Source of the DNA: Escherichia coli
GTDB lineage: Bacteria > Pseudomonadota > Gammaproteobacteria > Enterobacterales > Enterobacteriaceae
Reading direction: 5' to 3' (one strand)
DNA length: 27,357 bases
NCBI RefSeq assembly: GCF_003334355.1
Contig: NZ_QOWP01000042.1
Below, piece after piece: positions 8,836 to 10,184 of the stretch. Made by a program: the position numbers and the translations under genes. The notes under the pieces were generated by a model. The model did no database searches. It was given only the letters and a program-made list of their open reading frames with translations, and had not been told where the DNA came from. Each line of letters opens with the position of its first letter. The first letter of the stretch is position 1.

Positions 8836-8849
8836 ATTAACATTATCTA

Positions 8850-8884
8850 TTAACCCATAATTACAGGAAATAATTATGGGTTAA
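8850..8884. terminator. Perfect 14-bp inverted repeat (ttaacccataatta / caggaaa / taattatgggttaa) 15 nt after the entF stop; candidate terminator or protein-binding palindrome
   Basis: Seen in sequence: arms 8850..8863 and 8871..8884 are exact reverse complements, followed by a T-rich tract (tcatttgtttaattta). The stem is AT-rich, so function as an intrinsic terminator is uncertain. Confidence 0.35.
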
Positions 8885-9050
8885 TCATTTGTTTAATTTA
8901 TAAGTTTGCTGGTTATTTCTCTTAAATAGAGTGAATGTTGCATTCATTGGAAGGAATTTACAAACTTCAGCTTCGGATAATTCTCACCAACTGGTAAAGT
9001 GAGCGCCGTGGAGATTTCCCCCTATTGGACTCATTTTCAGGTTATACCCC

Positions 9051-10184
9051 ATGTCATCACTGAATATTAAACAGGGAAGTGACGCTCATTTTCCCGATTA
9101 TCCTCTGGCGTCGCCCAGTAATAATGAAATTGATTTACTTAATCTAATCTCAGTTTTATGGCGGGCCAAAAAAACGGTCATGGCGGTCGTTTTTGCGTTT
9201 GCCTGCGCAGGCTTGCTGATCTCTTTCATCCTGCCGCAAAAATGGACCAGCGCGGCGGTTGTCACGCCTCCAGAACCTGTTCAGTGGCAAGAGTTGGAGA
9301 AAACATTCACTAAGCTTCGTGTGCTGGATCTGGATATCAAAATTGATCGTACAGAAGCATTTAACCTGTTTATCAAGAAGTTTCAGTCGGTTAGCTTGCT
9401 GGAAGAGTACCTGCGTTCATCACCTTATGTGATGGACCAATTAAAAGAGGCGAAAATCGACGAACTGGATTTGCATCGCGCAATTGTCGCATTGAGCGAA
9501 AAAATGAAAGCGGTTGATGACAATGCCAGTAAGAAAAAAGATGAACCGTCACTGTATACCTCCTGGACGCTAAGTTTTACCGCGCCAACCAGTGAAGAGG
9601 CGCAGACCGTTTTGAGCGGGTATATCGATTATATCTCTACGTTGGTGGTGAAAGAGTCGCTAGAAAACGTCCGTAATAAACTGGAGATCAAAACCCAGTT
9701 TGAAAAAGAAAAACTGGCTCAGGATCGCATTAAAACGAAAAATCAACTTGATGCAAACATTCAGCGCCTCAATTATTCACTCGACATTGCCAACGCGGCA
9801 GGAATTAAAAAGCCCGTTTACAGTAATGGTCAGGCCGTTAAAGATGACCCCGATTTCTCTATTTCTCTCGGCGCAGACGGTATTGAACGCAAACTGGAAA
9901 TTGAAAAAGCGGTCACTGACGTTGCAGAACTGAACGGTGAATTACGTAATCGTCAGTATCTTGTTGAGCAGTTAACAAAAGCAAATATCAACGATGTGAA
10001 TTTTACGCCGTTTAAATATCAGTTAAGCCCGTCATTGCCAGTGAAAAAAGACGGTCCGGGTAAGGCGATTATTGTGATCCTTTCCGCGCTGATCGGCGGG
10101 ATGGTGGCTTGTGGTAGCGTGTTATTGCGCTATGCGATGGCATCCAGAAAGCAGGATGCCATGATGGCAGACCACTTAGTTTAA
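9051..10184 (+). CDS. fepE: FepE, Wzz-family polysaccharide co-polymerase (very-long O-antigen chain-length regulator)
   Basis: ORF 9051..10184, 377 aa, MSSLNIKQGSDAHFPDYPLASPSNNEIDLLNLISVLWRAKK... Two hydrophobic segments (VMAVVFAFACAGLLISFILP near the N-terminus, AIIVILSALIGGMVACGSVLL near the C-terminus) flank a charged, coiled-coil-like periplasmic region, typical of the Wzz/PCP-1 family. Confidence 0.9.
   Translation: MSSLNIKQGSDAHFPDYPLASPSNNEIDLLNLISVLWRAKKTVMAVVFAFACAGLLISFILPQKWTSAAVVTPPEPVQWQELEKTFTKLRVLDLDIKIDRTEAFNLFIKKFQSVSLLEEYLRSSPYVMDQLKEAKIDELDLHRAIVALSEKMKAVDDNASKKKDEPSLYTSWTLSFTAPTSEEAQTVLSGYIDYISTLVVKESLENVRNKLEIKTQFEKEKLAQDRIKTKNQLDANIQRLNYSLDIANAAGIKKPVYSNGQAVKDDPDFSISLGADGIERKLEIEKAVTDVAELNGELRNRQYLVEQLTKANINDVNFTPFKYQLSPSLPVKKDGPGKAIIVILSALIGGMVACGSVLLRYAMASRKQDAMMADHLV

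What the first reader, a model, noticed from the sequence alone, without database searches (positions are those of the whole stretch)
8836..10184. fepE (Wzz-family O-antigen chain-length regulator) sits inside the siderophore cluster with a distinctly AT-rich upstream region
FepE is not an iron-transport protein by sequence: two transmembrane segments flank a coiled-coil periplasmic domain, as in Wzz/PCP-1. The 215-bp entF–fepE spacer and the fepE coding sequence look noticeably more AT-rich than the flanking ent/fep genes (by eye; not computed). This suggests a separately acquired insertion with its own promoter, possibly H-NS-silenced. I see no strong Fur box in the fepE upstream region.
Basis: partly seen in the sequence, partly recalled or inferred. 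Interest (0 to 1): 0.4.

Follow-up and report, generated by a model that had tools for sequence, protein, structure and literature searches.

The report
fepE: O-antigen length gene cassette

Summary
ORF 9051-10184 encodes Wzz(fepE), 377 aa: NCBIfam equivalog at 624 bits against a cut-off of 300, two transmembrane segments, and an essentially identical match to solved FepE structures. The 215-nt spacer has GC 0.34 and fepE 0.447, against 0.569 for entF and 0.539 for fepC. This is the most AT-rich stretch of the window. GC3s is 3 sd below the ent/fep genes, but about 70% of the ORF's GC deficit comes from amino-acid composition, and a local codon-adaptation index is not an outlier. No good Fur box is present (12/19).

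The interpretation also holds.
- **Insertion.** Among 80 Enterobacteriaceae species, fepE fills the entF/fepC junction in Escherichia, Salmonella, most Citrobacter and a few others. In about 45 species the junction is a short GC-rich hairpin.
- **Separate transcription.** A covarying hairpin with a T-tract after entF looks like a terminator. An RcsB box and an extended -10 are conserved about 78 nt before the ATG.
- **H-NS.** The published EHEC H-NS footprint occurs exactly at 8905-8917.

The insertion is ancient: the gene is in 5,418 of 5,426 E. coli genomes. Everything central is already known. One new caveat: the published H-NS-site deletion also removes part of this hairpin and its T-tract.

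The parts
8849..8885 (+). Perfect 15-nt inverted repeat (ATTAACCCATAATTA / TAATTATGGGTTAAT, 7-nt loop) starting 14 nt after the entF stop: stem of a probable intrinsic terminator for fes-ybdZ-entF.
   Evidence: Searches found it. The RNA fold is -16.5 kcal/mol, z = -3.5, with 0 of 200 shuffles as stable. A hairpin occupies the same place in all 16 fepE-bearing sequences examined, which are 15 Escherichia, Citrobacter and Salmonella species plus EDL933. Of cells, 95.3% are paired; 8 of 12 pairs change on both sides; 0 of 500 shuffles reach this; slid registers give at most 50%. Termination itself was not measured.
8886..8899 (+). T-rich tail (CATTTGTTTAATTT) following the hairpin.
   Evidence: Sequence and terminator-like scan hit. 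Salmonella and Citrobacter homologues have cleaner T runs.
8905..8917 (+). TTTGCTGGTTATT: exact copy of the H-NS DNase I footprint published for the EHEC EDL933 fepE promoter.
   Evidence: Exact match to the sequence in PMC8669466. The block is not conserved outside E. coli, not even in E. albertii.
8973..8986 (+). TCGGATAATTCTCA: RcsB-type box (TN[G/A]GAN4TC[T/C]NA) overlapping the -35 position (TTCGGA, 8972-8977).
   Evidence: It differs by one base, at an N position of the consensus, from the Salmonella box TCGGATAATTCTGA. That box was shown by EMSA and footprinting to bind phospho-RcsB (PMC7913699). A box of this type lies 72-85 nt before the ATG of every chromosomal fepE homologue examined and of one plasmid copy. 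Only 2 matches occur in the whole window on both strands.
8992..9000 (+). Extended -10 element TGgTAAAGT (hexamer 8995-9000), 17 nt after TTCGGA. The predicted fepE transcription start is about 9005-9009.
   Evidence: Conserved as CTG-TA-A-T across Escherichia, Citrobacter and Salmonella. The start position is inferred from the Salmonella transcription start site, 36 nt after the box start. It was not measured in E. coli. The consensus scan found no promoter with at least 9 of 12 matches in the spacer, so this is a weak promoter.
9038..9041 (+). Shine-Dalgarno-like CAGG, 9 nt before the ATG.
   Evidence: Conserved (TCAGG) in all aligned spacers.
9051..10184 (+). wzz(fepE) coding sequence, 377 aa: TM1 at about residues 42-62, periplasmic helical domain, TM2 at about residues 338-358.
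   Evidence: Present in 5,413 of 5,426 complete E. coli genomes, with a divergent allele in 5 more.
10181..10184 (.). Right edge of the cassette: the fepE stop (TAA, 10182-10184) overlaps the convergent fepC stop (10181-10183). No spacer or terminator lies between them.
   Evidence: Salmonella, Citrobacter and the divergent Escherichia allele keep a 30-54 nt spacer with a GC-rich hairpin. Escherichia FepC is about 6 aa longer.

Best explanation
Window 8836-10184 is a self-contained cassette made of a terminator, a weak regulated promoter and wzz(fepE). It was inserted into the convergent entF/fepC junction of the enterobactin cluster in an ancestor of the Escherichia-Salmonella-Citrobacter group, and it has been inherited, and occasionally swapped, since.

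Shown elsewhere, by homology to characterised proteins: FepE is a class-1 polysaccharide co-polymerase. It forms an inner-membrane oligomer that works with the Wzy polymerase to set a very long O-antigen modal length. It has no role in iron transport.

Inferred from structure conservation: the hairpin and T-tract after entF stop most Fur-controlled fes-ybdZ-entF transcription.

Inferred from conservation and from the Salmonella transcription start site: fepE is transcribed from its own extended -10 promoter at about 9005-9009. Phospho-RcsB can bind a box that overlaps the -35 region.

Shown in EHEC, and the same sequence is present here: in E. coli the AT-rich spacer is bound by H-NS, which represses fepE. 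This fits the lack of transcript in K-12.

About two thirds of the gene's AT-richness comes from its Lys/Asn/Ile/Leu/Asp/Glu-rich protein and about one third from AT-ending codons. It persists in every lineage, so it is a stable property and not the fading scar of a recent transfer.
For: - Identity and fold.
- Composition.
- Empty junction versus filled junction across 80 species.
- fepE GC lies 5-15 points below its flanks in every lineage that has it.
- The FepE tree groups by genus (Escherichia, Salmonella, Citrobacter).
- The spacer architecture (hairpin, box, -10, Shine-Dalgarno) is shared by these genera. This fits one old insertion.
- Terminator covariation.
- RcsB box before every chromosomal homologue and one plasmid copy.
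- Cassette-sized allelic replacement with breakpoints at about 8786 and 10206.
- Plasmid-borne relatives.
- Literature:
  - H-NS binding, the hns deletion effect and an autonomous promoter fragment in EHEC (PMC8669466).
  - RcsB binding and a transcription start site in Salmonella (PMC7913699).
  - In serum, fes, ybdZ and entF are induced by iron limitation, whereas fepE responds separately to complement (PMC4145685).
  - No fepE transcript and no PmrA induction in K-12 (PMC8129183). This fits the absence of a full PmrA box in the spacer.
Against: - No transcription start or 3' end was measured for this sequence.
- The promoter matches the sigma-70 consensus poorly.
- The E. coli hairpin has an AU-rich stem with only 3 G-C pairs and an interrupted T-tract, so some read-through from entF is likely. 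Databases list fes-ybdZ-entF-fepE as one operon, as quoted.
- Gain versus loss was judged by parsimony on known taxonomy, not on a computed species tree. Four Citrobacter species lack the gene.
- Most of the GC deficit is amino-acid composition and the local CAI is unremarkable, so composition alone would not prove foreign origin.
Confidence: 0.85

Rival explanations
1. fepE is simply the last gene of the Fur-regulated fes-ybdZ-entF-fepE operon. Its expression comes mainly from read-through, and the spacer has no significant promoter of its own.
For: The gene is on the same strand as entF and only 215 nt downstream of it. The operon annotation fes-ybdZ-entF-fepE with regulators Fur and CRP is repeated in several papers. 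The E. coli hairpin is AU-rich with an imperfect T-tract. No near-consensus sigma-70 promoter is found in the spacer.
Against: The hairpin and T-tract are conserved with compensatory changes. In serum, fes, ybdZ and entF are induced but fepE is not co-induced. A fragment lacking the fes promoter drives gfp. Salmonella has a mapped transcription start site in the spacer. The -10 and RcsB box are conserved across genera and on a plasmid copy.
Confidence: 0.1
2. fepE is ancestral to the enterobactin cluster and was deleted in other genera. Its AT-richness reflects only protein composition and low expression, not a foreign origin.
For: About 70% of the GC deficit is explained by amino-acid composition, and the local CAI and codon likelihood fall within the range of neighbouring genes. 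Four Citrobacter species inside the fepE-bearing group lack it, so losses or replacements do occur. The gene has stayed AT-rich for a very long time.
Against: About 45 species in more than 10 genera show a clean, short, GC-rich hairpin junction with no fepE remnant. GC3s is 3 sd below the ent/fep genes. Unrelated cargo (Rhs, RTX, MCP) occupies the same junction in other genera. Divergent fepE alleles sit at the same site. Small plasmids carry family members.
Confidence: 0.07
3. The inverted repeat at 8849-8885 is a protein operator (a DNA palindrome) that controls fepE, not an RNA terminator.
For: It is a perfect 15-nt palindrome in an AT-rich regulatory region. Its 3' base is part of the 40 nt whose deletion raised fepE 2.1-fold in EHEC.
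Against: The arm sequence and loop length vary freely between species while pairing is kept. An operator would conserve sequence. The repeat is always followed by a T-rich run and lies immediately after the entF stop.
Confidence: 0.05

Closest known systems
Wzz(fepE) of E. coli O157:H7 and Salmonella Typhimurium (very-long O-antigen modal length regulator; structures 3B8M, 3B8N, 4E2L, 9SKI)
   Same: Same gene. The PDB FepE chains match residues 1-377 with E 4e-244. The position between entF and fepC is the same. The H-NS footprint sequence is the same as in EDL933. The RcsB box is essentially the same as in Salmonella, with one N-position difference.
   Different: Salmonella FepE is only about 74% identical. 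Salmonella keeps a terminator hairpin between fepE and fepC, which Escherichia has lost. PmrA activation is reported for Salmonella but was not seen in K-12, and no full PmrA box is present here.
Wzz of plasmid pHS-2 type (Shigella flexneri and E. coli 3-4 kb plasmids)
   Same: Annotated wzz(fepE). It is 63% identical over residues 3-371, shows that the family is mobile, and is even more AT-rich (GC 0.37).
   Different: It is plasmid-borne and its upstream region lacks the RcsB box. A second plasmid type (L082; 56% identical; GC 0.54) keeps the box.
WzzB (O-antigen cluster) and WzzE (ECA) PCP-1 co-polymerases
   Same: Same family and topology. The NCBIfam WzzB and WzzE models give sub-threshold hits (124 and 90 bits). 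PDB WzzB and WzzE hits have E values of 1e-27 to 1e-15.
   Different: These are distinct orthologous groups, located in their polysaccharide gene clusters and setting shorter modal lengths (established knowledge). FepE sits in a functionally unrelated siderophore cluster.

Membership tests
Wzz(fepE) / PCP-1 polysaccharide co-polymerase | Full-length match to the curated equivalog model above its cut-off | tested here: met
   NF007699: 624.1 bits against a cut-off of 300, residues 1-368 of a 368-position model
Wzz(fepE) / PCP-1 polysaccharide co-polymerase | N-terminal Wzz domain (PF02706) | tested here: met
   E 2.1e-19, residues 25-122
Wzz(fepE) / PCP-1 polysaccharide co-polymerase | Two transmembrane helices flanking a large periplasmic alpha-helical domain | tested here: met
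   Kyte-Doolittle peaks at residues 39-64 and 335-361 only. The periplasmic domain (63-331) is essentially identical to solved FepE domains 3B8M, 3B8N and 4E2L.
Wzz(fepE) / PCP-1 polysaccharide co-polymerase | Pro/Gly-rich motif next to TM2 | tested here: inconclusive
   The sequence SPSLPVKKDGPGK precedes TM2. There is only a weak GNVR hit, E 0.007.
Wzz(fepE) / PCP-1 polysaccharide co-polymerase | Confers a very long O-antigen modal length | not testable with these tools
   Published for Salmonella and EHEC (cited). It needs an LPS gel of a fepE deletion in a smooth strain.
H-NS-silenced horizontally acquired gene | AT-rich relative to flanks, with lineage-restricted presence at a conserved junction | tested here: met
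   GC is 0.34 in the spacer and 0.447 in fepE, against 0.54-0.57 in the flanks. The junction is empty in about 45 species.
H-NS-silenced horizontally acquired gene | H-NS binds the region and its removal derepresses the gene | not testable with these tools
   Published for EHEC EDL933: EMSA, a footprint, and a 3.3-fold rise on hns deletion. The footprint sequence is present exactly at 8905-8917.
Fur regulon / fes-ybdZ-entF operon member | Fur box at its promoter | tested here: not met
   The best match in the spacer is 12/19, against 15-16/19 at the fepD-entS and fepB-entC promoters and 13/19 in the fepA-fes intergenic region
Fur regulon / fes-ybdZ-entF operon member | Uninterrupted co-transcription with entF (no terminator in between) | tested here: not met
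   A conserved, covarying hairpin with a T-tract lies at 8849-8899. Its actual efficiency is unmeasured.
Rho-independent terminator (8849-8899) | Stable stem-loop followed by a U-rich tract, with the stem maintained by compensatory changes | tested here: met
   Fold of -16.5 kcal/mol, z = -3.5. 95.3% of cells paired, 8 of 12 pairs with double changes, 0 of 500 shuffles. T-rich tails in all 16 sequences.

The most novel reading that the evidence does not exclude
The promoter-plus-gene module (RcsB box, extended -10, fepE) is a mobile unit. It has entered the entF/fepC junction more than once, as shown by divergent alleles in other genera, a cassette-sized swap in 5 E. coli genomes and a plasmid copy that keeps the box. 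The junction itself is a recurrent integration hotspot.

In addition, the hairpin after entF is a leaky terminator. If so, part of the published 'H-NS site' deletion phenotype would really be entF read-through, which would couple O-antigen length to iron starvation.
Probability: 0.3. Interest if true: 0.35.

Novelty: already known. Interest (0 to 1): 0.18.

Why it matters
O-antigen chain length affects serum resistance, type III secretion and vaccine antigen yield, so how fepE is switched matters for pathogenesis. All the core facts are already published or annotated: FepE is a Wzz protein, it has its own promoter, H-NS represses it and RcsB binds upstream.

- A cross-genus map shows the cassette as an old insertion with defined edges.
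- A terminator between entF and fepE is supported by covariation.
- The RcsB box is the most conserved non-coding feature of the family.
- There is a caution for one published experiment. Its 40-nt 'H-NS binding-site' deletion also removes part of the terminator stem and its T-tract.

Tried and rejected
- **Fur box.** The 19-mer scan gave 12/19 in the spacer, so nothing convincing. NATWAT hexamer density is high there but merely tracks AT content.
- **PmrA box.** Only isolated half-sites are present and no direct repeat. This fits the lack of PmrA induction in K-12.
- **Consensus sigma-70 scan.** No hit inside the spacer at 9 of 12 or better. The promoter was located only by cross-species conservation.
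- **Rfam.** No family matched 8500-10500, even at E <= 1, so no known sRNA or riboswitch is present.
- **Codon adaptation as a marker of foreignness.** The local CAI and the codon log-likelihood did not separate fepE from its neighbours. Only GC3s did.
- **Unusual diversity within E. coli.** The effect is modest. Identity of 90-95% was found in 907 genomes for fepE, 434 for the entF 3' end and 29 for fepC/G. The whole ent region is fairly diverse, so this was not pursued as a diversifying-selection claim.
- **Prior publication of the insertion idea.** A literature search for an explicit horizontal-transfer statement about fepE found nothing relevant in the held library.
- **Failed call.** A first attempt to read the supplement timed out and succeeded later.

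Full report
**What is there.** The window is the E. coli enterobactin region, in the order entD, fepA, fes, ybdZ, entF, fepE, fepC/G/D, entS, fepB, entCEBAH, cstA and ybdH-N.
- The ORF at 9051-10184 (+) encodes a 377-aa protein.
- It matches the NCBIfam equivalog 'LPS O-antigen length regulator Wzz(fepE)' at 624 bits against a cut-off of 300. EntF and FepC on either side match their own equivalogs.
- It has a Pfam Wzz domain.
- It has exactly two strongly hydrophobic segments, at residues 39-64 and 335-361.
- It is essentially identical to FepE chains with solved structures: 9SKI full length, and 3B8M, 3B8N and 4E2L for the periplasmic domain.

**Composition.**
- The spacer 8836-9050 has GC 0.340 and fepE has 0.447. 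entF has 0.569, fepC 0.539 and the window as a whole 0.541.
- The lowest-GC 215-nt window and the lowest-GC 1134-nt window of the whole sequence both fall here.
- GC3s is 0.463, against 0.601 +/- 0.045 for the 12 other ent/fep/fes genes with entD excluded (z = -3.0).
- Back-translating FepE with ent/fep codon preferences still gives GC 0.481 +/- 0.008. About 70% of the deficit is therefore amino-acid composition, and about 3 points is synonymous choice.
- A leave-one-out local CAI (z = -0.9) and the codon log-likelihood (z = -0.2) are unremarkable.
- entD, ybdM and ybdN are equally AT-rich.

The "by eye" claim is confirmed for GC and GC3 but not for codon adaptation.

**Fur.** The best 19-mer match in the spacer is 12/19. 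The fepD-entS and fepB-entC promoters score 15-16/19, and the best match in the fepA-fes intergenic region is 13/19.

**Insertion.** I fetched the FepC neighbourhood from 80 species of Enterobacteriaceae and located FepG, FepC, FepE and the EntF C-terminus in each.
- In about 45 species the entF and fepC stops are 12-367 nt apart. The spacer has GC 0.51-0.70 and folds into strong GC-rich hairpins. These species include Klebsiella, Raoultella, Enterobacter, Kosakonia, Lelliottia, Leclercia, Kluyvera, Yokenella, Trabulsiella and four Citrobacter.
- In Escherichia, Salmonella and most Citrobacter the same junction holds a 1.35-1.56 kb block with GC 0.41-0.48 that contains fepE.
- Pseudocitrobacter has fepE plus a waaB-like galactosyltransferase at the junction.
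- Three other taxa carry divergent alleles there, 55-60% identical to the window's protein.
- Other genera carry unrelated cargo at the very same junction: Rhs fragments, an RTX-repeat protein, and an MCP with a hydrolase.
- fepE is 5-15 GC points below its flanks in every lineage.
- The FepE tree groups by genus and the spacer architecture is shared. This fits one old insertion followed by descent, not a recent island.
- The window's allele is present in 5,413 of 5,426 complete E. coli genomes.
- Five further genomes carry a roughly 77%-identical allele. In one of them, NCTC9967, identity to the window is 93-100% up to about 8785, 38-80% from about 8786 to 10206, and 91-100% afterwards. The swapped block is exactly the interval from the entF stop to the fepC stop.
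- FepE-family genes also occur on 3-4.7 kb plasmids of E. coli and Shigella.

**Transcriptional anatomy of the spacer.** An alignment of 16 spacers from Escherichia, Citrobacter and Salmonella shows three conserved features in an otherwise free-drifting sequence.

*1. A hairpin after the entF stop.*
- It lies at window 8849-8885 and is a perfect 15-nt inverted repeat.
- Its fold energy is -16.5 kcal/mol, with z = -3.5.
- It is followed by a T-rich run, and it folds in every species although the arm sequences differ.
- On an alignment with a 12-pair stem, 95.3% of cells pair and 8 of 12 pairs show changes on both sides. None of 500 shuffles reaches this, and slid registers give at most 50%.
- I read this as the intrinsic terminator of fes-ybdZ-entF. 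Structure conservation is shown; termination is inferred.

*2. The box and promoter.*
- The block TTTCGGATAATTCTCA contains an RcsB-type box at 8973-8986.
- It is followed 17 nt after TTCGGA by an extended -10, TGgTAAAGT (8992-9000).
- In S. Typhimurium the near-identical box TCGGATAATTCTGA lies at -36 to -22 from a mapped transcription start site. It binds phospho-RcsB in EMSA and footprinting (PMC7913699).
- By homology the E. coli start is at about 9005-9009. This is inferred.
- A box of this type sits 72-85 nt before the ATG of every chromosomal homologue examined, including the divergent alleles, and of one plasmid copy. The pHS-2-type plasmid lacks it.

*3. A Shine-Dalgarno-like CAGG* at 9038-9041.

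No Rfam family matches the region.

**Published regulation.**
- Liu et al. 2021 (PMC8669466) pulled down H-NS on the EHEC fepE promoter and footprinted TTTGCTGGTTATT. An hns deletion raised fepE 3.3-fold and increased long O-antigen chains.
- That 13-mer is at window 8905-8917.
- Their promoter fragment corresponds to window 8777-9203. It lacks the fes promoter yet drives gfp.
- In ExPEC, fes, ybdZ and entF are induced by iron-poor serum, while fepE responds separately to complement (PMC4145685).
- In K-12 no fepE transcript was detected, and constitutive PmrA did not induce it (PMC8129183). This matches the absence of a PmrA direct repeat here.

**A caveat found on the way.** I mapped the primers of the published 'fepE-bs' mutant onto EDL933.
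- The deletion is 40 nt, GGTTTATCATTTATTTAATTTATAAGTTTGCTGGTTATTT. It spans L083:1660-1699, which equals window 8879-8918.
- It is therefore not just the 13-nt footprint. It removes the 3' base of the hairpin stem and the whole T-tract.
- The reported 2.1-fold rise in fepE could therefore partly reflect read-through from entF. This is an inference from primer sequences, not a measured result.

**Right edge.** In Escherichia the fepE and fepC stop codons overlap (10181-10184) and FepC is about 6 aa longer. Salmonella, Citrobacter and the divergent Escherichia allele keep a 30-54 nt spacer with a GC-rich bidirectional hairpin. No canonical fepE terminator was found in the window.

**Verdict.** Both the observation and the interpretation are right, with two corrections: the acquisition is ancient, and codon adaptation does not discriminate the gene. 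The gene, its structure and function, its separate promoter and its repression by H-NS are all in the literature and in routine annotation, so this counts as already known and of low interest. The comparative map, the terminator covariation, the family-wide RcsB box and the deletion caveat are small additions.

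Noticed in passing
window 8879-8918 (= L083:1660-1699 in EDL933): The published EHEC 'H-NS binding-site' deletion (fepE-bs, PMC8669466 Table S4) is 40 nt. It also removes the 3' base of the entF-terminator stem and its T-tract, so its 2.1-fold effect on fepE is confounded with possible read-through.
   Followed up: partly
window ~8786-10206; L084 (E. coli NCTC9967), L004: Five of 5,426 complete E. coli genomes carry a divergent fepE allele (about 77% protein identity). The divergent block runs exactly from the entF stop to the fepC stop, with 91-100% identity outside it. 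This is a cassette-sized allelic replacement.
   Followed up: yes
window 10181-10184 and 10200-10223: The fepE and fepC stop codons overlap and no terminator lies between these convergent genes. Escherichia FepC is about 6 aa longer than in other genera. A 7-bp GGTGCCG/CGGCACC hairpin lies inside the fepC 3' coding end. Other genera keep a 30-54 nt hairpin spacer.
   Followed up: partly
window 9120-9144 (inside fepE, codons 24-31): Two overlapping 13/19 matches to the Fur 19-mer, as good as the best match in the fepA-fes intergenic region. They are probably a by-product of AT-rich coding sequence. Not tested.
   Followed up: no
L058:7805-12469, L079:7802-12593, L076:7802-10991, L056:7805-10917: In Kosakonia, Enterobacter sp. 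and Pluralibacter the same entF/fepC junction holds unrelated cargo: Rhs core fragments, a 1,304-aa RTX-repeat protein, an MCP with an alpha/beta hydrolase, and unknown ORFs. This suggests a recurrent insertion hotspot.
   Followed up: partly
L034:9436-10575: In Pseudocitrobacter vendiensis a second LPS gene lies between entF and fepE. It is a lipopolysaccharide 1,6-galactosyltransferase (WaaB-like; 498 bits against a cut-off of 385).
   Followed up: no
L082:1-196 (E. coli 3.5-kb plasmid), L081 (S. flexneri pSF203-4): Small plasmids carry fepE-family genes. The E. coli O68 plasmid copy keeps the RcsB-type box 85 nt before its ATG, whereas the pHS-2-type copy (GC 0.37) does not.
   Followed up: partly
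window 256-1026 (entD), 25357-27191 (ybdM, ybdN): entD (GC 0.480, GC3s 0.456, local CAI z = -2.8), ybdM (GC 0.468) and ybdN (GC 0.476) are as AT-rich as fepE. fepE is therefore not the only compositional outlier in the window.
   Followed up: no
hit H1 (NZ_CM136169.1), matching window 8700-10300: A strain that is 100% identical over this stretch has an IS5-like ISKpn26 element inserted in the locus. About 0.6% of genomes that have the window's allele cover less than 80% of the gene.
   Followed up: no
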